Below, piece after piece: positions 3,870-23,071 of a stretch of 32,947 nucleotides of DNA. This stretch comes from a virus. The notes beneath the pieces were generated by a model. It searched no databases and had not been told where the DNA came from. It was given only the letters and a program-made list of their open reading frames with translations. The position numbers and the translations under genes are program-made. The stretch lies in UHGV virus genome UHGV-0038968, one strand, 5' to 3'. The stretch's first letter is position 1. The number at the start of each line of letters is the position of its first letter.

Positions 3870-4948
3870 CAGAACGGGTCCTCCTGTACTCTGGCTTTTT
3901 TCTTTTTCCGCGCGCCGGGGGCTTCGGGTTCAGGCAGATAAGCATCAGGTGGGCCGACACGGATTTCCGTCAGGGTGCCGTTCTGGTCCTGAGTAAACGT
4001 GACTTCCGAAACAAGCAGTTCGGTATTGTCGAAACCACAGACCGGATCAAAGACAATCACCCGCTGGTTGGGCTGCCACAGCGTACCGTTACCCTGTCGC
4101 CAGCCCTGCACCACATAGGTGGTTTCATCCGTCCGCGCCGCCCGTTGTCTGGCTTCAAAGTCCGCACGGGCAATACAGCCTGCCCCCGTAGCCTGCCCTG
4201 TCTGCCTGATATACATCGGACGGTAACGGGCAATAAATGCGTCCTCTGTGCGGGCCCGCAGCGCGGTGGTGGTGGCCTCACCGAAATCATCGTCGTTTCC
4301 GGCACGCTGCCCCGCCACCTGGTAAACAGAAAACCGCTCCCGGATACTCTTCTCCGTATCGCAGGAAAGGATGTTTTCCCCGAGTACCAGCGCAGTATGT
4401 GCCCGCGTTGAGCCAATACCGCCAATCACCAGCCTGCCGTGCGGGTCGTCGTAAGCCAGTGCCTGCTGCTGACCGAGTATTTTGTTGATTACCTCAATCA
4501 CCGTTTCACCGTGATCAGGCTGAACATCAGGAATAACACCCGACGGCGCACCGCTGTTCACCACCTCAATGCCGAAAGGCGCAGCAAGCGCCTGCGCAAT
4601 CTGCACCAGCGAGCGTCCGTTAAACTGTGTCGGTTCGGCTGCACAGTCAATCAGGTCAGCCGTCAGACTACGTCCGGCAATACCGGTGCTGACCGAACGG
4701 GCATCGTAACGAACGGGAGTCGCCTCCACCCAGCCGGTGATCACCAGCTCATCACCAATCAGCACTTCCACTTTTGAACCGTTTTTAATGCGCGGCTGAA
4801 GCGTGGTGATACCCTCATCTCCCGGCCACTGGCGAGTGATCTCCACACTGAAATCCCGCGCCAGCCGTTCAATACCGGCACCGATGCGCACCGATGTCCA
4901 GCCATTCCACTCCCGGCCATTTACCCGTAGCGTGACATTGTCGTTCAT
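3869..4948 (-). CDS. Tail protein, Mu gpP (gp44)-like baseplate hub
   Basis: 359 aa; follows the DNA-circulation gene as in Mu. Confidence 0.65.
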   Translation of the reverse strand: MNDNVTLRVNGREWNGWTSVRIGAGIERLARDFSVEITRQWPGDEGITTLQPRIKNGSKVEVLIGDELVITGWVEATPVRYDARSVSTGIAGRSLTADLIDCAAEPTQFNGRSLVQIAQALAAPFGIEVVNSGAPSGVIPDVQPDHGETVIEVINKILGQQQALAYDDPHGRLVIGGIGSTRAHTALVLGENILSCDTEKSIRERFSVYQVAGQRAGNDDDFGEATTTALRARTEDAFIARYRPMYIRQTGQATGAGCIARADFEARQRAARTDETTYVVQGWRQGNGTLWQPNQRVIVFDPVCGFDNTELLVSEVTFTQDQNGTLTEIRVGPPDAYLPEPEAPGARKKKKARVQEDPF

Positions 4949-6273
4949 TGCACTGGCACCTTCAGAGGGATCACCGGCACAAAGCCGGGATGCGTAATGG
5001 CATTACGCCGGATAATGTCCGCATCACGCGCCGCGTTATCAAACCAGGTAGCCGCCAGCACCAGCGCGGGTAAAACCTCATCCGGTGTGCGCTGAATGAT
5101 CCGTGCAGACTGTTCAAGGCGCGTGTTGATATCCGCATTCAGATCTGCTTTCACCCGGCGCAGCGCCAGAAACAGCGCATCACTGGTTGTACGGGACAAC
5201 TCCTTATCAATTGCCGTATTCAGTGTGTCGCGAATGTCAGTCAGTTCTTCCCACGTCGGCAGGTCAACCGTGTTTTTCACCGCCGGTGCATTGTTTAGTG
5301 CCGGATGCGTGACGGAAGGCCAGCCAGTGCTCTGCGCGGGTGTTGTTGCCTGCCCCACTGCGGAATTCTGCATCACCGCGGAAGTTGTTGGCGCAGACAA
5401 TCGGGTGACGGCATACGCCGCTTCGCTGATTGCGGTCGTACGAAGGGTGCTGGCAACCACGTTACGCTGCTGCGTCGCCGTGGCGGTGGTTTTACTGTCC
5501 GTTTTCCAGACGCCGCGCGGTTGCAGATCGCTGCCGAGGCTGACACCGGAAAGCGTTTTGATCATGGTGACCAGGTCGCTGGCGTTACCATAAAGGCGTT
5601 TCCCGGTACGCCACATTTTCTGCACCTGCTCAACGAAATTTTTGCCTGACGATGGCGGCGGCAGAAGTACCGAGATATCCCCCTGCAACAGCCTGGCGGC
5701 ATCCGATACGGCAGAATCCACCACTTTCATCGCATCAGAAACATACCCAAGCATTGTGCTGGCATTACCGACGACATCGTTCTGCACAAAATCTGCCACG
5801 CCATCGATACTGAAACTACTGAAACTGTCACTGATGCAGTCATCCAGTGCAGAACAGGATGACATCAGCGTCTGCGCCGTCGCCGCACCTGATGTGGGGT
5901 AAGAGAGTTCTCCCGCTTCGACAAACTTCAGGTCAAAGCGGACAATACGCCCTTCACTCTTCGATGTGCTGACCCGAACTTCTCCGTCAACACAGACTTT
6001 CAGCTCACCGTAAGTCGGATGGACAAGCGTGCCGGGACCGGGTTTATTCAGCGCGTCAATCAGGCGATCGCGCTGGTCAAAGCAGTCATCTCCCACCACA
6101 TAAGCCGTAATGGACGGGCGGAAAGTGATTTTCCCCAGGTCTTCGGTATAGGGTTTGTCGCGGTTCGGGTATTCGTGCGTTTCCACACGACGGCCAGTTC
6201 CCGCACTTTCTTCTTCAACCTTAAACGGCACACCTCGAAATGACGCATCCTGAAGCCTGTCTTTCCACGTCAT
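4945..6273 (-). CDS. DNA circulation protein-like (Mu N / gp43-like)
   Basis: 442 aa; N-terminus MTWKDRLQDASFRGVPFKVEEE...THEYPNRD resembles the Mu N family; directly downstream of the tape measure region. Confidence 0.7.
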   Translation of the reverse strand: MTWKDRLQDASFRGVPFKVEEESAGTGRRVETHEYPNRDKPYTEDLGKITFRPSITAYVVGDDCFDQRDRLIDALNKPGPGTLVHPTYGELKVCVDGEVRVSTSKSEGRIVRFDLKFVEAGELSYPTSGAATAQTLMSSCSALDDCISDSFSSFSIDGVADFVQNDVVGNASTMLGYVSDAMKVVDSAVSDAARLLQGDISVLLPPPSSGKNFVEQVQKMWRTGKRLYGNASDLVTMIKTLSGVSLGSDLQPRGVWKTDSKTTATATQQRNVVASTLRTTAISEAAYAVTRLSAPTTSAVMQNSAVGQATTPAQSTGWPSVTHPALNNAPAVKNTVDLPTWEELTDIRDTLNTAIDKELSRTTSDALFLALRRVKADLNADINTRLEQSARIIQRTPDEVLPALVLAATWFDNAARDADIIRRNAITHPGFVPVIPLKVPVQ

Positions 6274-6284
6274 ATATACTCCGA

Positions 6285-6314
6285 AAATTAAAAAGCCACC
6301 TATTAGAAGGTGGC
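6285..6314 (-). terminator. Intrinsic terminator downstream of the AT-rich moron
   Basis: Minus-strand stem GCCACC / GGTGGC with 8-nt loop followed by TTTTTAATTTT, immediately after the stop at 6335. Confidence 0.6.
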
Positions 6315-6334
6315 CTTGTAATGAATTTTATTAA

Positions 6335-6865
6335 TTAGCGAGTCAGAAACAACGAATCTTTATACTTTTGCTGTTGTTCATTTAAATACTTAGCTGTTTC
6401 ATCGCTGGCAAATGGAAATATTACCGTATTTTTAGGCATGGTAATTTCTTTTTTGTCCAGCGTCAGAGTAAACATAGGAACATACTGAGCAGAGTAACGC
6501 ACCGCAGAAACGAGCTCTAGTTTAGACTCTTCAACAACACTTAAATTATCCAGGCTAACTTTCTCTTCATCTTTTTTCTTTGACGCATTTAAAGTTTTTA
6601 TTACTTTATTTAATTTCTCCTGAAAATCCTCCTTAAAGTTTTCAGGATTGCCGTCGACAACAAGAATCTGTTCACCCTGATTATCTGGAAAAATAATCTT
6701 TGCACTTATCAATTTATTTTCTTTATAAACATCACCAAGTTTTATGGCTCCTCCAGATAACTGAATAATATGTTCATCTTTAAAGGAGATGTTGCCAGAG
6801 ATTATGAGAGATGAAAAAACAGCCGCTGCTCCAAGAATTACACTTGCTGTGATATAGCCTTTCAT
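6335..6865 (-). CDS. Hypothetical exported or membrane-anchored protein (moron), unknown function
   Basis: 176 aa; hydrophobic N-terminus MKGYITASVILGAAAVFSSLIISG; Lys/Glu-rich; visibly AT-rich unlike flanking tail genes; own promoter-like and terminator elements. Confidence 0.7.
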   Translation of the reverse strand: MKGYITASVILGAAAVFSSLIISGNISFKDEHIIQLSGGAIKLGDVYKENKLISAKIIFPDNQGEQILVVDGNPENFKEDFQEKLNKVIKTLNASKKKDEEKVSLDNLSVVEESKLELVSAVRYSAQYVPMFTLTLDKKEITMPKNTVIFPFASDETAKYLNEQQQKYKDSLFLTR

Positions 6866-6900
6866 TTTTCGCCTATTAACATTTTTCTAAATGTGCATTA

Positions 6901-6928
6901 ATTCTATCACTCTATTTATGACTTACAA
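6901..6928 (-). promoter_or_regulatory. Candidate sigma70 promoter for the moron (TTGTAA, 16-nt spacer, extended -10 TGaTAGAAT)
   Basis: Hexamers read on minus strand in the AT-rich gap between tape measure stop and moron start. Confidence 0.4.
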
Positions 6929-6956
6929 CCAGCAATACCTGTGAGGGGAATCCTGG

Positions 6957-8789
6957 CTACCAAAATCGGGTATAGCCAACATCGTGATTTATATCAATGC
7001 CACTGGAGCGTGTTTCCGTAACCCGCATACCTGGTGGCATATTTATAAATGATACCTTGATCTCACCATCAACTTTTGGCGCAGAAGCTTTGTTAATCAT
7101 GAAGGGATTCGGGCCTGTGGCATCGGAGGCGTTGTTTGACTGAGCCAGATCTACCGCCGGATAAGGTGTGTATCCCCGCGCCGGTATTCCCGTCCCATAA
7201 GCATCATAAGCACCCGCGCCCCACTGCGCAGAGTTAATGGCATCGACCGTGTCACCGGAACTGTCGGTAAACCACTCAATAATTGGCTTCAGCTTATCCC
7301 ACATATCCTGAAACCACTTAACAACCGGTCCCCAGTTATTGATCACCATCCCCAGCGGCGACCAGGCAAAAACCTTCTTCAGAAGTTCCCAGCCAGCCTC
7401 AAAATAAGGACCAATGGTTTCCCAGAGCTTCTTAAAATAAGGTCCGACAACATCCCAGTTAGTGATAATTAATCCCGCAGCCAGAGCAATCGCCGTCGCA
7501 ATCATGCCAATCGGCGTCATCGACATAATCCTGCTGACAATACTGATGGCACTGCCCACGCCCATCAATCCCAGTTTCAGAATCGCAAGACCGGCAGCAA
7601 GCCCGACGACGCCGCGAATAACCCGGGGATTTTCATCCGCAAACTTCGTGAATTTTTCCCCTAACTCCCCCAGCCACTGCGTGATGTTCTTAGCGTCACC
7701 AGAAAATGCGCCGCCAATAGCCGCAAGGCCGTTAGTTGCGGTCCCCGTCATTGCCTCCCACAGGTTGGACAGCGTACCAAGCTGAGCCTGAACACGTTTA
7801 TTCAGGCTGGCCTGTTTATTCATCTTCTGCTGGATCTGATCGTAGCCATCCTTTCCTTTATCGATTAGTGCATTGACCACCTGAAGGGTTTCGGCATCAT
7901 CACCAAATATTGCCTTAAGTACACCGGTTCGCTTAACGTCGGTCAGTTTTCGCAGCTTTGCCAGTTGCCTGAACATGTTATCAAGACCGCCAAAACTCCC
8001 TTTGCCATCAGTAAAATCGAGCTGTACCCCGAGTTTCTGGCGGGCCATGATTTTATTGACGTCCCTGATTTTCTTAACGCTTAATCCGGACTGGATAACT
8101 TTTCGCAGGGCATTACCTGCCGACTCCCCGTTCATCCCCATCTGATCCATCATGACACTGATGGGGGCAAGACTCTGTGCAGCCTGAAGACCGTCCTTAT
8201 TCACCATCTTCAGAACAGAGCTGGTTTTAGTGAAGAATGACAGCATGTTGGTATCGTCCACGCCCAGATAAAACGCCTTCTGAATTGTGTCGAACAGCCC
8301 CATCATGTCTTCTGAGGCCGTTCCGGTAGCATCCTGCATCTTTGCGGCAAACTCAGCAGCCGCTTCCGGTGTTTTTTTCAGTTGTACCGCAAGATAAGCT
8401 GTCGCTTTACCCACACCACCAAGAATGTTTTCTGCCGGGATCCCCTGACGCACCAGCATCTGCATCATGTTCTGGAAATCAGCCGTTGTACCGGGTAGCT
8501 GGTTACCCAGGCCAATAGCCAGTTTATTGATGTCCTGAAAGCTCTTTCCAACCTCGCCGTTCGCATCCATCATGGCGACTTTCAGCCCGGTGGCGGCGTT
8601 TTCCTGATCAGCATAAGATTTCAGGGAAAGCGTCAGACCCGCTGCCAGTCCGCCACCAAGCGCCAGCCCACCCTGTGACGCTTCTTCCGCCTGGCGTTTA
8701 AATCCCCGGATTTTCTTTTGCATTTTCGACAGCGCGGGAGAAAGCCTGTCGACACCGGTGATCAACGCCTTAAGCTCAAATTCAGCCAT
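6957..8789 (-). CDS. Tail tape measure protein
   Basis: 610 aa; Ala/Gly-rich with hydrophobic segments; follows the frameshifted chaperone pair. Confidence 0.8.
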   Translation of the reverse strand: MAEFELKALITGVDRLSPALSKMQKKIRGFKRQAEEASQGGLALGGGLAAGLTLSLKSYADQENAATGLKVAMMDANGEVGKSFQDINKLAIGLGNQLPGTTADFQNMMQMLVRQGIPAENILGGVGKATAYLAVQLKKTPEAAAEFAAKMQDATGTASEDMMGLFDTIQKAFYLGVDDTNMLSFFTKTSSVLKMVNKDGLQAAQSLAPISVMMDQMGMNGESAGNALRKVIQSGLSVKKIRDVNKIMARQKLGVQLDFTDGKGSFGGLDNMFRQLAKLRKLTDVKRTGVLKAIFGDDAETLQVVNALIDKGKDGYDQIQQKMNKQASLNKRVQAQLGTLSNLWEAMTGTATNGLAAIGGAFSGDAKNITQWLGELGEKFTKFADENPRVIRGVVGLAAGLAILKLGLMGVGSAISIVSRIMSMTPIGMIATAIALAAGLIITNWDVVGPYFKKLWETIGPYFEAGWELLKKVFAWSPLGMVINNWGPVVKWFQDMWDKLKPIIEWFTDSSGDTVDAINSAQWGAGAYDAYGTGIPARGYTPYPAVDLAQSNNASDATGPNPFMINKASAPKVDGEIKVSFINMPPGMRVTETRSSGIDINHDVGYTRFW

Positions 8790-18876: not shown

Positions 18877-19233
18877 TCACTTGAGCCGCTCACGCGCGGT
18901 CTTCGCTGCGTGACACGACCAGCACAGGCTTTCAAGGTTGCTGTCTTCATCAGTACCGCCGTGGGCCTTCGCCTTGATGTGGTCCACGCAGGACGCCTGC
19001 TTCACTATCGCCTGCCGTAGATGGTTCTGACACAGCCCTTTGTCGCGCTTAAGTATCCGCTCCCGGATGACTTCCCACTTTGTTCCGTATCCTCGCTGCT
19101 GCCGTGATTGACCAGGCTTGTAGGACTTCCAGCCTTCACCTTTGTGATTTTCACAGTAGCCAGATGGGTCTGTTGTGGTGTTGCGACAGCCGCGAACACG
19201 GCAAGCCTTTGGTGTGCGCGGTGGCATATTCAC
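18877..19233 (-). CDS. HNH endonuclease (packaging-associated)
   Basis: 118 aa with Cys/His pairs (CRVRGC...C..H, H...WSCH); adjacent to terminase as in HK97-like phages. Confidence 0.8.
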   Translation of the reverse strand: MNMPPRTPKACRVRGCRNTTTDPSGYCENHKGEGWKSYKPGQSRQQRGYGTKWEVIRERILKRDKGLCQNHLRQAIVKQASCVDHIKAKAHGGTDEDSNLESLCWSCHAAKTARERLK

Positions 19234-19494: not shown

Positions 19495-19552
19495 ACCTCA
19501 GTTGTTAAAAAGCCCCGCTATTGCGAGGCTATGATTGACTAAAGTGATGCTG

Positions 19553-19828
19553 TCAGGTGTGGGTCCAAATGAATTTAACAATCCCAATAATGCTAGCCAG
19601 AACGCCAAAACCAAAAATAAATTGACCACATACCCCTATGATTCCCGATGCAATGGCACCGGCATTTGTCTGAGCATTTTCGTTTATGCTCGCCCCCACT
19701 AGATACATAATCAAACCAACTATGAGAGATGCGATAATCCAATGTTCCACTGCTAATACAATTACAATGCTCAAAATATCTGCTAAACCATCACTATGAC
19801 CACTCACTGCATATCCTTGCTTTGACAT
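19553..19828 (-). CDS. Small hydrophobic membrane protein (91 aa), unknown function
   Basis: Two to three predicted TM segments (ILSIVIVLAVEHWIIASLIVGLIMYLVGA, GIIGVCGQFIFGFGVLASIIGIV); visibly AT-rich. Confidence 0.55.
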   Translation of the reverse strand: MSKQGYAVSGHSDGLADILSIVIVLAVEHWIIASLIVGLIMYLVGASINENAQTNAGAIASGIIGVCGQFIFGFGVLASIIGIVKFIWTHT

Positions 19829-19894
19829 TTGAAAAATTCATCACTGGATTATAATTGTTTACACCCTTCATAGTCGTTCGAATATGATAAAAAA

Positions 19895-20431
19895 TCAATT
19901 GTGGGGGATAGCGTTATTTGACTCTCTCAACGAGTCGTAAATACGTTCACACGTCATCCCGGCGGTGTAGCGTTCGTCAGCGATTCCAGCATAACGTTTA
20001 GCTTCTGCTGCAATATCTCCGAGCATGTCGGCGAACATTCCGGCGTCGGCGTCGGTTGTTTTGCTTCGGACGGCAGCGGCAAGATCAGCGGTGTGCTTTG
20101 CGGCGTCCAGGCGTGCGGCAAGCTTTGTTGCTTCGGTACGCAACTGGCTAACAGTGGCAGACAGGCCAGCAGCAGTGGCAGCAGATTTAGCGGCTTGTGC
20201 TTGTGCATCTTTTACAGCCTCATCACGGGCAATTATGCGCCCTTGTTCAATCCAGCGTGCGGCAGTCTGCGCGTTCGCTTCCTGTGAAGATTCCATGCTA
20301 TTGTGGTCAGCCCACTTCTTTTGCCAGCCCCGCTCACTCCAGATGTTCCCGACAAGAAATGCACCAGCCAACATCAGCAAAACAATGATTGTTTTCCACC
20401 GCGCCTGAACAAAAGCAAAGACCGCTGTCAT
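19895..20431 (-). CDS. Rz-like i-spanin
   Basis: 178 aa; N-terminal TM ([14 protein letters not shown]) then Ala/Gln-rich coiled-coil-like region; follows the endolysin with 4-nt overlap. Confidence 0.7.
19954..20208 (-). CDS. Rz1-like o-spanin lipoprotein, embedded in Rz in an alternative frame
   Basis: Signal-like stretch with lipobox LLASC followed by a Pro-rich mature region; true start may be an internal codon. Confidence 0.55.
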
Positions 20432-21045: not shown

Positions 21046-21326
21046 TAGTGCCTCAGATGATCAACCAGACGTGCAACGTTGCCTCTGACGGCCACCAGCA
21101 CGGAAAGAAAAATAGTGTTCGCCACGATAATGGGCCATGAGGAATGGGGATAAATCCCACAGAGATAGGCCAACGGAACAGCACTGTATGTAACAGTAAT
21201 CAGCCAGGCTAAACGTGAAACCCAAGGACGATGCCGCGAATCACCACGACGATAAAACATCAGAGTAATAACAACACAAGCACATAACAGCGCATTTATA
21301 GTTGCTGTCGGGTCATTTAGCTCCAC
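21045..21326 (-). CDS. Holin or antiholin-like membrane protein
   Basis: 93 aa; two to three hydrophobic helices; between the first holin and the endolysin. Confidence 0.5.
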   Translation of the reverse strand: MELNDPTATINALLCACVVITLMFYRRGDSRHRPWVSRLAWLITVTYSAVPLAYLCGIYPHSSWPIIVANTIFLSVLVAVRGNVARLVDHLRH

Positions 21327-21699
21327 CTGAACCTCCCCGGCGCGTTATGAGCGCCACCAGCGAGCCGATATCCTGATTATTCAGGAACGTCAGGATTTTA
21401 ACGGCTAAAGCAGAGACGATTACGGCACCAATAGCATCCAGAGGTTTATCACTGTATCCGGTCAAGTTCGCCAGCTTGGAGCCAACCAACCCAGAGCAAA
21501 GAATCCCGGCAATATATGACACGATAAAATATGCCAGTCGGCGCGATGCACTCAGATCTGCAGCTGTTGCTATGTAGAATACAGCCCCTGCAAATGCGCC
21601 AAATACAACGCCGTAATCAGTTCCGGTCAGCAGTCCATAAACACTGGCACCCGTCAGGGCACCACCAGCCAGCCCAGTACCGGAAATCGGATCGGACAT
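21313..21699 (-). CDS. Putative holin
   Basis: 128 aa; Gly/Ala-rich TM helices, basic C-terminal tail (RRGGSGGAK); first gene of the lysis cassette. Confidence 0.6.
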   Translation of the reverse strand: MSDPISGTGLAGGALTGASVYGLLTGTDYGVVFGAFAGAVFYIATAADLSASRRLAYFIVSYIAGILCSGLVGSKLANLTGYSDKPLDAIGAVIVSALAVKILTFLNNQDIGSLVALITRRGGSGGAK

Positions 21700-21789: not shown

Positions 21790-22386
21790 TTAAGATAAAC
21801 TTTGATTGATATACTCATGACACCCAAAAATAAAGGCGTTTTGTGCATCAATAAATGACTTTTTTTCTTCCGGAGTAAAATACCCTTTTGTAAAACATAC
21901 TTTTAGCGCTTTTTGAAGATCTGCCGTCAGGGTTATCAACTTACAACCTTCCTCATCAGGCCTTATTAATAGAAGTAATTTATTTTTACTTATTTCAGCG
22001 GCCTTTATTGGAACTTGAATCTCCTCAGGGAAAACACCCTTAGCCAATATATCCATATTCTTATTTCCGACCAGATGCCATTGCTCAAATGTGCTGGCCA
22101 ACATAATTACGTCTGTCACATGCTCAGCGCCAGCAAAACGTATTTGTTGCGCCAATTCTTTATTAGTATTCAAGTGAGCCTGTAATGTGGCTAAGGCAAA
22201 ATTTTCTTTGATTGCCCTGTATGCAACCCAACCAGTTATTCCTGCGGCAATAACGCCTGCAAGAGCAGTAATGAGTGTTTCAAAAGGAAAGGAAGAACTG
22301 ATTTCAATTGGCGGTAATTTTTCTATTACCAAGGTCAACTCGCCAGTAGTTTTTTCGAAAGCGTACGGTACGTTTTGCCAAGTCAT
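21790..22386 (-). CDS. Hypothetical single-pass membrane protein (moron between Q and lysis genes)
   Basis: 198 aa; one TM helix (ITALAGVIAAGITGWVAYRAI) after a ~35-aa N-terminal segment; AGGAGG 6 nt upstream of the ATG; visibly AT-rich; no family recognised. Confidence 0.65.
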   Translation of the reverse strand: MTWQNVPYAFEKTTGELTLVIEKLPPIEISSSFPFETLITALAGVIAAGITGWVAYRAIKENFALATLQAHLNTNKELAQQIRFAGAEHVTDVIMLASTFEQWHLVGNKNMDILAKGVFPEEIQVPIKAAEISKNKLLLLIRPDEEGCKLITLTADLQKALKVCFTKGYFTPEEKKSFIDAQNAFIFGCHEYINQSLS

Positions 22387-22492: not shown

Positions 22493-23071
22493 TTAAGCAC
22501 TTTCTTGCTCACTCTGCAACTTAAATCTGTCGCTATTTGTGCCGAATGCGTCACAAACTGGAGCGTACAGGATCGATTCTGCAAGACTTAGCCAAGTGTC
22601 AATGCGTCGACGACAGGTGATCAGCGGCCAGTCAGGATGTTTAGCCTGCAGTTCATTGGCCATCTGCAACTTGCTCTTACGAAGACGATACCGGTCAACA
22701 ATCACGCTATAGAGCGATCGGTAGTCATCATTCATCAGTACTGAAGCAATGACACCGTCCACTAACAACCCTTCTTCATCTGAACAGAACGCCAGGCCGC
22801 TTTTATTTTTGCTGTTGAGAATTTCACGCAGGTACGCTTCAAGTTCAGGCTTGGTGATACCCGCTATCTTCATCCGGCGTAGCGCTTCATTGATAGCTGT
22901 CTTGGTGATTTTCCCGGATGCCAGAAGCTGGTTAAACATGTTTCCACCACTACCACCGCCGATATAAGACCAGCGGCCCCACATGCGCAACTTGCCTTGT
23001 ATCCAGATACTTTCCAGAGTACGAAGGCGAACCATTTCACCTGATTTGCCAACTTCAGAAGGATTAATCAT
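22493..23071 (-). CDS. Late-gene antiterminator Q-like protein
   Basis: 192 aa; position directly upstream of a short terminated leader and the lysis cassette; translation resembles lambdoid Q family proteins. Confidence 0.7.
   Translation of the reverse strand: MINPSEVGKSGEMVRLRTLESIWIQGKLRMWGRWSYIGGGSGGNMFNQLLASGKITKTAINEALRRMKIAGITKPELEAYLREILNSKNKSGLAFCSDEEGLLVDGVIASVLMNDDYRSLYSVIVDRYRLRKSKLQMANELQAKHPDWPLITCRRRIDTWLSLAESILYAPVCDAFGTNSDRFKLQSEQESA

What the first reader, a model, noticed from the sequence alone, without database searches (positions are those of the whole stretch)
6285..6928. Self-contained moron (promoter, gene, terminator) inserted between tape measure and DNA-circulation genes
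An AT-rich 176-aa ORF with a signal-peptide-like or N-terminal anchor sequence interrupts an otherwise tightly packed Mu-like tail module. It has a candidate extended -10 promoter upstream and an intrinsic terminator downstream, the textbook moron architecture that allows expression from the repressed prophage. The product is predicted periplasmic or envelope-anchored and matches no family I know, so it could be a lysogenic-conversion or exclusion factor acting at the cell envelope.
Basis: partly seen in the sequence, partly recalled or inferred. Interest (0 to 1): 0.75.

Follow-up and report, generated by a model that had tools for sequence, protein, structure and literature searches.

The report
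Prophage moron encoding membrane-anchored protein
This is a real add-on gene cassette (a "moron") in the tail genes of an SfV-like E. coli prophage; it encodes a small membrane-anchored protein of an uncharacterised family, most plausibly a blocker of competing phages, so it is a good candidate for experiments but an ordinary kind of element.

Summary
A 176-aa ORF (6335-6865, minus strand; GC 0.35 against 0.51-0.56 in its neighbours) lies between the tape-measure gene and the Mu gp43-like DNA-circulation gene of an SfV/SfI/SfII-like lambdoid prophage.

- **Flanking signals:** a promoter-like site lies upstream and a strong hairpin with a T-run lies downstream.
- **Accessory status:** about 1,097 of 5,426 complete E. 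coli genomes carry the flanking genes, but only about 173 carry the ORF. 542 have a 61-nt "empty" spacer. Others carry unrelated low-GC cargo in the same slot.
- **A real gene:** nonsynonymous differences are far fewer than synonymous ones. Homologues 41-59% identical occupy the same slot in Leclercia and Edwardsiella prophages. An intact orphan copy survives in Lelliottia without any phage. Relatives 24% identical sit in non-phage integrative islands.
- **The protein:** it has one N-terminal membrane helix and a confidently modelled α/β domain (pLDDT 91.6) with no relative in the PDB, Pfam, NCBIfam or PADLOC. It belongs to phrog_5485, function unknown.

The hairpin is a feature of the slot and is also present in the empty allele. 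The promoter is only a consensus match.

The function is inferred, not shown. The most likely role is superinfection exclusion at the cell envelope. This is a new member of a known kind, of moderate interest.

The parts
6901..6928 (-). Sigma-70 promoter-like site: -35 TTGTAA, 16-nt spacer, extended -10 TG-n-TAGAAT. It ends 35 nt upstream of the ATG.
   Evidence: It matches 9 of 12 consensus positions plus the TG. 8% of shuffles of the 110-nt upstream region score as well. A -35-like TTGTAW/TTGTCA lies just after the tape-measure stop codon in 6 of 7 diverged loci by my reading of the alignments, but the quality of the -10 varies.
6866..6956 (-). Upstream non-coding part of the cassette. The tape-measure stop codon is at 6957-6959.
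   Evidence: Homology with the empty-site allele breaks within the last 2-3 codons of the tape-measure gene.
6335..6865 (-). 176-aa ORF, a member of phrog_5485 (function unknown), under purifying selection.
6797..6862 (-). Codons 2-23: the single N-terminal transmembrane helix, acting as a signal anchor.
   Evidence: The 19-residue Kyte-Doolittle score is 2.09. There is no cysteine and no lipobox. The net charge is +1 on the N-terminal flank and -1 on the C-terminal flank.
6719..6784 (-). Codons 28-49: the most conserved stretch of the family, next to the membrane (N.I...G.V.LG.VY.E).
   Evidence: G39, L43, G44 and E49 are invariant or nearly invariant across 58 sequences.
6282..6317 (-). Intrinsic-terminator-like hairpin (6292-6317) and T-run (6282-6291), directly upstream of the DNA-circulation ribosome-binding site (GGAG, 6279-6282).
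   Evidence: -17 kcal/mol, z = -4.9. An equivalent hairpin is present in the empty allele and in the other cargo alleles.
6957..8789 (-). Upstream flank: the tail tape-measure gene.
   Evidence: PF10145, phrog_28 and others.
4945..6273 (-). Downstream flank: the gene for the Mu gp43-like DNA-circulation / baseplate-hub protein.
   Evidence: PF07157, phrog_184.
22493..23071 (-). Context: a Q-type antiterminator homologue that could let late transcription read through the hairpin.
   Evidence: DUF1133 and Phage_antitermQ. Read-through is inferred, not shown.

Best explanation
The region is a moron cassette sitting in a cargo hotspot between the tape-measure and DNA-circulation genes of an SfV-like lambdoid prophage with a Mu-type tail.

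**What it encodes.** The product is a 176-aa protein with one membrane span. A short, positively charged N-terminus is followed by a helix at residues 2-23 that anchors the protein in the inner membrane. A compact α/β domain (residues about 33-171) most likely faces the periplasm.

**How it is probably expressed.** It is probably transcribed weakly from its own promoter in the lysogen. During lytic growth it would also be read as part of the Q-antiterminated late transcript. Either transcript would end or pause at the slot's hairpin.

**Proposed function (inferred, not shown).** The protein acts as a superinfection-exclusion factor. It would sit at the inner-membrane/periplasm interface and use its conserved membrane-proximal surface to bind either an incoming phage's ejected tail proteins (tape measure or tail tip) or the host component those proteins use. 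This would block channel formation and DNA entry, as the HK97 gp15 moron does.

**Confidence by step.**
- Accessory moron in a hotspot: about 0.9.
- Inner-membrane anchor with a periplasmic domain: about 0.7.
- Exclusion of phages at the envelope: about 0.35-0.4.
For: **Accessory and polymorphic**
- The flanking genes occur in about 1,097 of 5,426 E. coli genomes, the ORF in about 173. 542 genomes have the empty 61-nt allele.
- SfI, SfII and SfV have an empty slot.
- At least five unrelated alternative cargoes occupy the same slot. All are low-GC (0.31-0.40). They were found in 84, 54 and 24 genomes, plus one more type seen in a single strain.

**Most cargoes are envelope-targeted**
- Four of the five cargo types are envelope-targeted by my reading of their N-termini.
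- The OB-fold cargo falls in phrog_8545, annotated 'superinfection exclusion Sie-like' (E = 1.3e-43).

**A real gene under selection**
- pN is 0.08-0.31 against pS of 0.57-0.96.
- The gene lies in the same slot in 77 of 80 IMG/VR contigs; the other 3 are cut by contig ends. It also lies there in Leclercia and Edwardsiella prophages whose tape-measure proteins are only 36-75% identical.
- An intact orphan copy in Lelliottia keeps about 60 nt of the tape-measure 3' end and the hairpin, but no phage genes remain.
- Members 24% identical lie in non-phage integrative islands beside an Mrr nuclease.

**Structure**
- One transmembrane helix plus an α/β domain, pLDDT 91.6.
- The conserved residues are not catalytic-looking, which suggests a binding protein (my inference).

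**Precedent**
- HK97 gp15 is a moron next to the tape-measure gene. It encodes an inner-membrane protein and blocks genome entry in a way that depends on the incoming phage's tail (PMC3594210).
Against: - No experiment or transcript data exist for this gene.
- The promoter is statistically weak and poorly conserved.
- The topology call is weak. Counts of K+R on the two sides of the helix are nearly equal across the family (1.17 against 1.26).
- The 'Sie-like' label on a neighbouring cargo allele is a database annotation, and it applies to an unrelated protein.
- Sharing a hotspot does not prove sharing a function.
Confidence: 0.4

Rival explanations
1. It is a lysogenic-conversion factor that benefits the host for reasons unrelated to phages. 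The envelope protein would change stress tolerance, serum or bile resistance, adhesion, or sensitivity to colicins or tailocins, as lambda Bor and Lom or the prophage acyltransferase NeaT do.
For: - The product is envelope-targeted.
- An orphan copy is retained after the prophage decayed.
- The gene stays AT-rich and unameliorated, like neaT (PMC3573123).
- Morons commonly alter the cell surface (PMC3594210).
Against: - Carriers come from cattle, humans, poultry, dogs, river water and sludge, with no pathotype pattern in the rows I saw.
- Homologues occur in environmental Leclercia and Lelliottia, in Edwardsiella, and in marine Pseudomonas-like genomes. This fits a universal pressure such as phages better than a host-specific niche.
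- There is no similarity to Bor, Lom or TraT, and no lipobox.
Confidence: 0.25
2. It is a single-protein, membrane-anchored abortive-infection or late-acting defence, like lactococcal AbiP or S. aureus PdpSau. The domain would be cytoplasmic, would sense an infecting phage, and would then depolarise the membrane or block replication or assembly.
For: - It has an N-terminal transmembrane helix plus one globular domain, the same general layout as PdpSau and AbiP (PMC10127798).
- The topology is not settled by charge counts.
- Other prophage morons defend by targeting the tape measure from inside the cell, for example Tab (PMC10884400).
- Distant family members lie near an Mrr nuclease.
Against: - The N-terminus looks like a signal anchor (M-K then a hydrophobic stretch). 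A database names one homologue 'Secreted protein'.
- PADLOC models do not match.
Confidence: 0.15
3. It is a phage-benefit gene used in the lytic cycle. It would be made from the late transcript and would help the phage's own tail assembly, DNA ejection or lysis timing in some hosts.
For: - It has the same orientation as the late operon and would be co-transcribed with it under Q antitermination.
- In phages it is always found next to the tape-measure gene.
Against: - It is absent from most related prophages and from the viable phages SfI, SfII and SfV.
- The slot is filled interchangeably by unrelated proteins.
- The gene survives without any phage in Lelliottia and in non-phage islands.
Confidence: 0.1

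Closest known systems
HK97 gp15 moron (superinfection exclusion; Cumby et al. 2012, summarised in PMC3594210)
   Same: - A single small gene inserted in the tail operon directly next to the tape-measure gene.
- Different base composition from its neighbours.
- Putative promoter and terminator of its own.
- Product anchored in the inner membrane.
- Bacterial homologues exist outside prophages.
   Different: - No sequence relationship: gp15 is YebO-like.
- gp15 lies upstream of the tape-measure gene in a siphovirus; this gene lies downstream of it in a Mu-type contractile tail module.
- gp15's function was shown experimentally; here it is only inferred.
phrog_5485 / phrog_34391 (PHROGs v4, function unknown)
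   Same: - Full-length match, E = 7e-108 over 176 of 176 positions.
- All 58 aligned family members match phrog_5485.
   Different: Nothing differs; this is the family the gene belongs to. It has no annotation, no Pfam model and no solved structure.
Exclusion proteins anchored by one N-terminal transmembrane helix with an extracytoplasmic domain (T4 Sp, lactococcal Sie2009-type); my own knowledge, not tested here
   Same: - Size class of about 100-190 aa.
- A single N-terminal membrane anchor.
- Expressed from a phage or prophage.
   Different: - No detectable sequence similarity.
- The fold of those proteins was not compared here.
- They occupy different genomic positions.
Cargo hotspots in temperate phages (P2 moron positions 1 and 2, PMC3573123; Tai and Tab morons in late operons, PMC11364771 and PMC10884400)
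   Same: - One fixed intergenic position holds alternative, unrelated, low-GC accessory genes in otherwise collinear phages.
- Several characterised cargoes at such positions are anti-phage.
   Different: - I did not find the tape-measure/DNA-circulation position of SfV-like phages described as a hotspot in the papers searched.
- The cargoes here are mostly envelope proteins rather than cytoplasmic defence systems.

Membership tests
Moron (Juhala/Hendrix definition, as restated in PMC3594210) | Extra DNA lies between two genes that are adjacent in related phages. | tested here: met
   - Tape-measure and DNA-circulation genes are separated by 61 nt in 542 E. coli genomes and in SfI, SfII and SfV.
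- They are separated by 24 nt in SfIV.
- They are separated by 683 nt in this window.
-.
Moron (Juhala/Hendrix definition, as restated in PMC3594210) | Base composition differs from the surrounding genes. | tested here: met
   GC is 0.347 and GC3 is 0.30, against GC 0.51-0.58 and GC3 0.56-0.65 in the neighbours.
Moron (Juhala/Hendrix definition, as restated in PMC3594210) | It has its own promoter. | tested here: inconclusive
   - The site TTGTAA-16-TGnTAGAAT is present.
- 8% of shuffles score as well, and the homologues' upstream regions give mostly non-significant matches.
- The intact orphan copy in Lelliottia argues indirectly for independent transcription.
Moron (Juhala/Hendrix definition, as restated in PMC3594210) | It has its own terminator. 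| tested here: inconclusive
   - A strong hairpin with a T-run is present (z = -4.9).
- An equivalent hairpin is also present in the empty allele, so it belongs to the slot rather than to this gene.
Moron (Juhala/Hendrix definition, as restated in PMC3594210) | It is expressed from the repressed prophage. | not testable with these tools
   This needs RNA-seq or 5'-RACE on a lysogen.
phrog_5485 | Full-length, significant match to the family profile. | tested here: met
   E = 7e-108 over 176 of 176 positions. All 58 family members match.
Core Mu-type tail component | Present at the same position in all related tail modules. | tested here: not met
   It is present in about 173 of about 1,097 E. 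coli genomes that carry the flanks. It is absent from SfI, SfII, SfV and SfIV.
Known superinfection-exclusion or defence protein families (PADLOC, Pfam, NCBIfam, annotated PHROGs) | Sequence or fold homology to a characterised member. | tested here: not met
   - No hit in PADLOC, NCBIfam or Pfam.
- A profile search of PDB sequences gave nothing.
Known superinfection-exclusion or defence protein families (PADLOC, Pfam, NCBIfam, annotated PHROGs) | Blocks adsorption or DNA entry of a superinfecting phage. | not testable with these tools
   This needs plating, adsorption and DNA-injection assays.
Outer-membrane lipoprotein exclusion factors (Cor, Llp, TraT type) | Lipobox with an acylated cysteine after the signal peptide. 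| tested here: not met
   The protein has no cysteine at all. Only 1 of 58 family members has a lipobox-like motif.
AbiP/PdpSau-type membrane-anchored abortive-infection proteins | N-terminal transmembrane helix plus a cytoplasmic OB-fold, nucleic-acid-binding domain. | tested here: not met
   - The transmembrane helix is present.
- The modelled domain is a β-sheet packed against two helices, not an OB-fold.
- The topology itself could not be tested.

The most novel reading that the evidence does not exclude
phrog_5485 would be a previously unrecognised class of inner-membrane injection blockers with a fold of its own. The position between the tape-measure and DNA-circulation genes in SfV-like, Mu-type tail modules would be a dedicated exclusion hotspot. 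There, unrelated envelope proteins (this family, two secreted proteins, and a membrane-anchored OB-fold 'Sie-like' protein) would be swapped in an arms race with the tape-measure and tail-tip proteins of competing phages.
Probability: 0.25. Interest if true: 0.6.

Novelty: new member of a known kind. Interest (0 to 1): 0.4.

Why it matters
If the exclusion reading is right, this small family gives a new, easily testable protein that stops phage genome entry at the inner membrane of enterobacteria. That step is poorly understood, and it matters for phage therapy and for competition among prophages.

The cargo hotspot described here would also be a simple place to look for further envelope-acting anti-phage genes. 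It has one fixed position, at least five unrelated cargo types and an empty state, all within about 1,100 of 5,426 E. coli genomes.

If the gene instead alters the cell surface for host-related reasons, it is a candidate fitness factor carried by common E. coli and Shigella serotype-converting phages.

Either way the element is an ordinary kind of thing, a moron. Its value is as a well-delimited candidate for experiments.

Tried and rejected
**Searches that found nothing**
- Pfam, NCBIfam and PADLOC gave no match for the protein. Pfam scans of all 58 family members gave only scattered chance hits.
- tblastn against 50,697 deposited phage genomes gave no match, so no isolated phage in that collection carries this gene.
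- A profile search of PDB sequences gave only E = 0.66.
- Foldseek against BFVD, run with the first, poor model, gave one marginal hit: a 'Lipoprotein' of Pseudomonas phage ventosus (E = 8e-5, TM-score 0.41, rmsd 16 Å). This is too weak to use.
- Rfam on 6000-7200 gave only a sub-threshold Phe_leader match that overlaps the terminator. I rejected it.
- A literature search for the RefSeq accession WP_000679482 found no paper.
- The window's exact protein sequence is not in the 15-billion-sequence collection.

- The AFDB Foldseek library was unavailable.
- The search for related loci with the wide alignment failed because it had no conserved stretch. With the narrow alignment it found only one species-representative genome, from Edwardsiella.

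**Hypotheses tested and dropped**
- Profile comparison of the family with the three other cargo proteins showed no relationship.
- In the marine islands, the gene just upstream of the family member is not a paralogue.
- A search for inverted repeats that might mark an invertible promoter next to the serine recombinase found nothing convincing.
- Consensus promoter scans of the Leclercia, Lelliottia and Edwardsiella upstream regions showed no clearly conserved promoter.

Full report
**1. What is in the sequence**

The finding's coordinates hold a 176-aa ORF at 6335..6865 on the minus strand. Its GC is 0.347 and its GC3 is 0.30. The tape-measure gene upstream (6957..8789) has 0.512/0.556, and the DNA-circulation gene downstream (4945..6273) has 0.558/0.598. 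This is the deepest AT-rich trough in the 32.9-kb window.

A sigma-70-like site, TTGTAA-16-TG-n-TAGAAT, lies at 6928..6901 and ends 35 nt before the ATG. A 10-pair hairpin at 6317..6292 is followed by UUUUUAAUUUU. The hairpin is a strong structure: -17 kcal/mol, z = -4.9, and 0 of 200 shuffles fold as well. The promoter match is not significant on its own. The 1.5-kb region has 2 matches against 2.9 expected, and 8% of shuffles of the 110-nt upstream region score as well.

No other ORF of note lies in the interval. No Rfam family reaches its threshold there.

**2. The phage**

The neighbours are tape measure (PF10145), DNA_circ_N, Mu gp44-like hub, sheath, tube and tail chaperone. The best-matching annotated genome is E. 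coli C4, at 99.7% over 2.1 kb. It shows a lambdoid prophage at tRNA-Arg/yfdC beside intS, with an HK97-type head, a P27-family terminase and a Mu-type tail. The window itself holds a Q-antiterminator homologue at 22493..23071.

Among isolated phages, the closest flanks belong to SfI, SfII and SfV, at 95-96% identity. So the tail module is Mu-like, but the phage is SfV-like and lambdoid.

**3. Accessory status, and a cargo hotspot**

A 2.1-kb query across the slot finds the flanks in 1,097 of 5,426 complete E. coli genomes. Only 173 of these carry the ORF (one search gives 175 with a shorter query).

| State of the slot | Where found |
|---|---|
| Empty, 61-nt spacer | 542 genomes; SfI, SfII, SfV |
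| Empty, 24-nt spacer | SfIV |
| This 176-aa ORF | about 173 genomes |
| 164-aa protein with a signal-peptide-like N-terminus (phrog_8976) | 84 genomes; phage SKA5 has a gene of matching span in the slot |
| OB-fold protein (PF12869 tRNA_anti-like), on the opposite strand | 54 genomes |
| bPH_1 domain protein | 24 genomes; 89% identical copy in Edwardsiella phage EPP-1 |
| 162-aa signal-peptide protein, beside a different tape-measure type | E. coli WEM25 |

All cargoes are low in GC (0.31-0.40). The three I compared with this family by profile are unrelated to it. Four of the five cargo types have an envelope-targeting N-terminus by my reading of the sequences. The OB-fold cargo matches phrog_8545, labelled 'superinfection exclusion Sie-like', at E = 1.3e-43.

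Homology between the filled and empty alleles breaks within the last two or three codons of the tape-measure gene on one side. On the other side it breaks just upstream of the DNA-circulation ribosome-binding site.

**4. The hairpin belongs to the slot**

The empty 61-nt allele also has a GC-rich hairpin with a T-run directly before the DNA-circulation ribosome-binding site. So do the PH, 164-aa and 162-aa alleles and every diverged homologue locus, each with a different stem sequence. The SfII record lists a 'terminator' among the features under the match.

The OB-fold allele is reversed. It has a hairpin on the tape-measure side instead.

Late transcription must therefore pass a terminator-like structure whether or not cargo is present. 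Read-through under Q antitermination is my inference. The moron uses this structure rather than bringing a unique one of its own.

**5. The gene family**

Only 25 proteins in 5.8 billion match the protein directly. They are E. coli copies at 98% identity and Leclercia or Lelliottia proteins at 52-58%. A profile search of 1.84 billion cluster representatives finds 78 clusters. The full-length ones I aligned are about 166-203 aa, and the displayed rows all begin with a hydrophobic N-terminus. The juxtamembrane motif N.I...G.V.LG.VY.E, together with Y124 and L134, is conserved across them. All 58 aligned members match phrog_5485, function unknown.

*Position in phages.* In phages the gene always lies in this slot:
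- 77 of 80 IMG/VR contigs have it there, and the other 3 are cut by contig ends.
- Leclercia prophages have it there although their tape-measure proteins are only 36-75% identical.
- Edwardsiella has a 41%-identical copy in the slot.

*Occurrence outside phages.* Two cases show that the gene is not tied to a tail:
- Lelliottia amnigena has an intact orphan copy between icd and a GATase gene. It keeps about 60 nt of the tape-measure 3' end and the hairpin, but no phage genes remain.
- Members 24% identical in marine Pseudomonas-like genomes lie in small integrative islands with serine recombinases, an Mrr nuclease and a DUF5906 protein.

*Selection and composition.* Selection is purifying. pN is 0.08-0.31 against pS of 0.57-0.96, and synonymous sites are mostly saturated. 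This includes the orphan copy, with pN 0.093 and pS 0.767 against its nearest relative. The enterobacterial members stay AT-rich (GC3 0.29-0.38) despite this deep divergence. Low GC is therefore a maintained property and not a sign of recent arrival. The same was noted for neaT (PMC3573123).

**6. The protein**

There is one hydrophobic segment, at residues 5-23, with a 19-residue Kyte-Doolittle score of 2.09. The family median is 2.22. The protein has no cysteine and so no lipobox. The net charge is +1 before the helix and -1 after it. K+R counts on the two sides are nearly equal across the family, so an N-in, C-out topology is likely but not secure. A database names one homologue 'Secreted protein'.

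The conserved residues (Gly, Leu, Tyr, Glu) do not look like an active site. I infer that this is a binding protein.

**7. Mechanism**

*Shown:* this is an accessory cassette under selection, in a position that holds interchangeable cargo. Its product has one membrane anchor and a compact domain.

*Inferred:* it is expressed in the lysogen, the domain faces the periplasm, and the protein interferes with incoming phages at the DNA-entry step.

Five points support that inference:
- The precedent of HK97 gp15, a moron next to the tape-measure gene that encodes an inner-membrane protein and blocks genome entry in a tail-dependent way (PMC3594210).
- The envelope bias of the alternative cargoes.
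- The 'Sie-like' label on one of those cargoes.
- The spread of the family across hosts and mobile-element types, which fits a universal pressure such as phages.
- The survival of an orphan copy.

None of these is a test. I put the exclusion reading at about 0.35-0.4. The rivals are a host-fitness envelope factor (0.25), an AbiP/PdpSau-like membrane-anchored abortive system (0.15; PMC10127798) and a lytic-cycle helper (0.1).

**8. Comparison with what is known, and verdict**

The element meets the positional and compositional criteria of a moron. The promoter and terminator criteria are inconclusive for the reasons given above. It is a member of phrog_5485 and of no characterised family.

I found no paper describing this slot as a hotspot, nor this protein. 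That search covers open-access text only.

It is a new member of a known kind. Its interest is moderate: it is a clean, testable candidate for a new envelope-acting anti-phage protein with an unmatched fold, in a hotspot of the SfV-like phage lineage that I did not find described in the papers searched.

Noticed in passing
window 21790-22386 (minus strand): A second AT-rich ORF (198 aa, no Pfam match) lies in a GC trough (minimum 0.363). It sits between the Q-antiterminator homologue (22493-23071) and the holin gene (21313-21699). This is the classical lambdoid moron position downstream of Q.
   Followed up: no
window 19501-20000: Another AT-rich stretch (GC minimum 0.37) lies between the HNH endonuclease gene (18877-19233) and the DUF2514 gene of the lysis region (19895-20431).
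   Followed up: no
L017 3001-3525 (Lelliottia amnigena, GCA_053585915.1): An intact orphan copy of the family lies between icd and a GATase gene. It is flanked by about 60 nt of degraded tape-measure 3' end and by the hairpin, with no other phage genes. The moron appears to have outlived its prophage.
   Followed up: partly
L013 1173-11500; L016 (marine Pseudomonas-like genomes): Family members 24% identical lie in small integrative islands beside a serine recombinase of about 189 aa. The L013 island also carries an Mrr-type nuclease and interrupts an FKBP gene. The L016 island carries a DUF5906 protein.
   Followed up: partly
L026 396-854 (E. coli L65): An IS200C copy has inserted between the 176-aa ORF and the DNA-circulation gene, at or near the terminator hairpin.
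   Followed up: no
L001 975-1034, and SfI/SfII/SfV; L021 3223-3246 (SfIV): The common 'empty' allele is itself a 61-nt AT-rich spacer (GC 0.35) with a terminator-like hairpin. SfIV has only 24 nt and no hairpin. The 61-nt spacer may be the scar of an earlier cassette or a backbone attenuator.
   Followed up: partly
L025 2238-2615 (Edwardsiella phage EPP-1): An isolated Edwardsiella phage carries, in the same slot, a bPH_1 protein 89% identical to the E. coli PH-domain cargo. The cargo is far more similar than the flanks, which are about 70% identical at the DNA level. This points to recent exchange of the cassette between genera.
   Followed up: partly
L023 2235-4051 (E. coli ET791): This prophage is rearranged. 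The tape-measure gene is truncated to its 3' end and abuts inverted DUF2635 and sheath genes.
   Followed up: no
L012 11389-14047 (E. coli C4): The prophage sits at tRNA-Arg next to yfdC and intS. By my own knowledge this is the CPS-53/KpLE1 attachment region of K-12. It carries an acyltransferase-family gene beside the integrase, the usual place for O-antigen-modifying genes in SfV-like phages.
   Followed up: no
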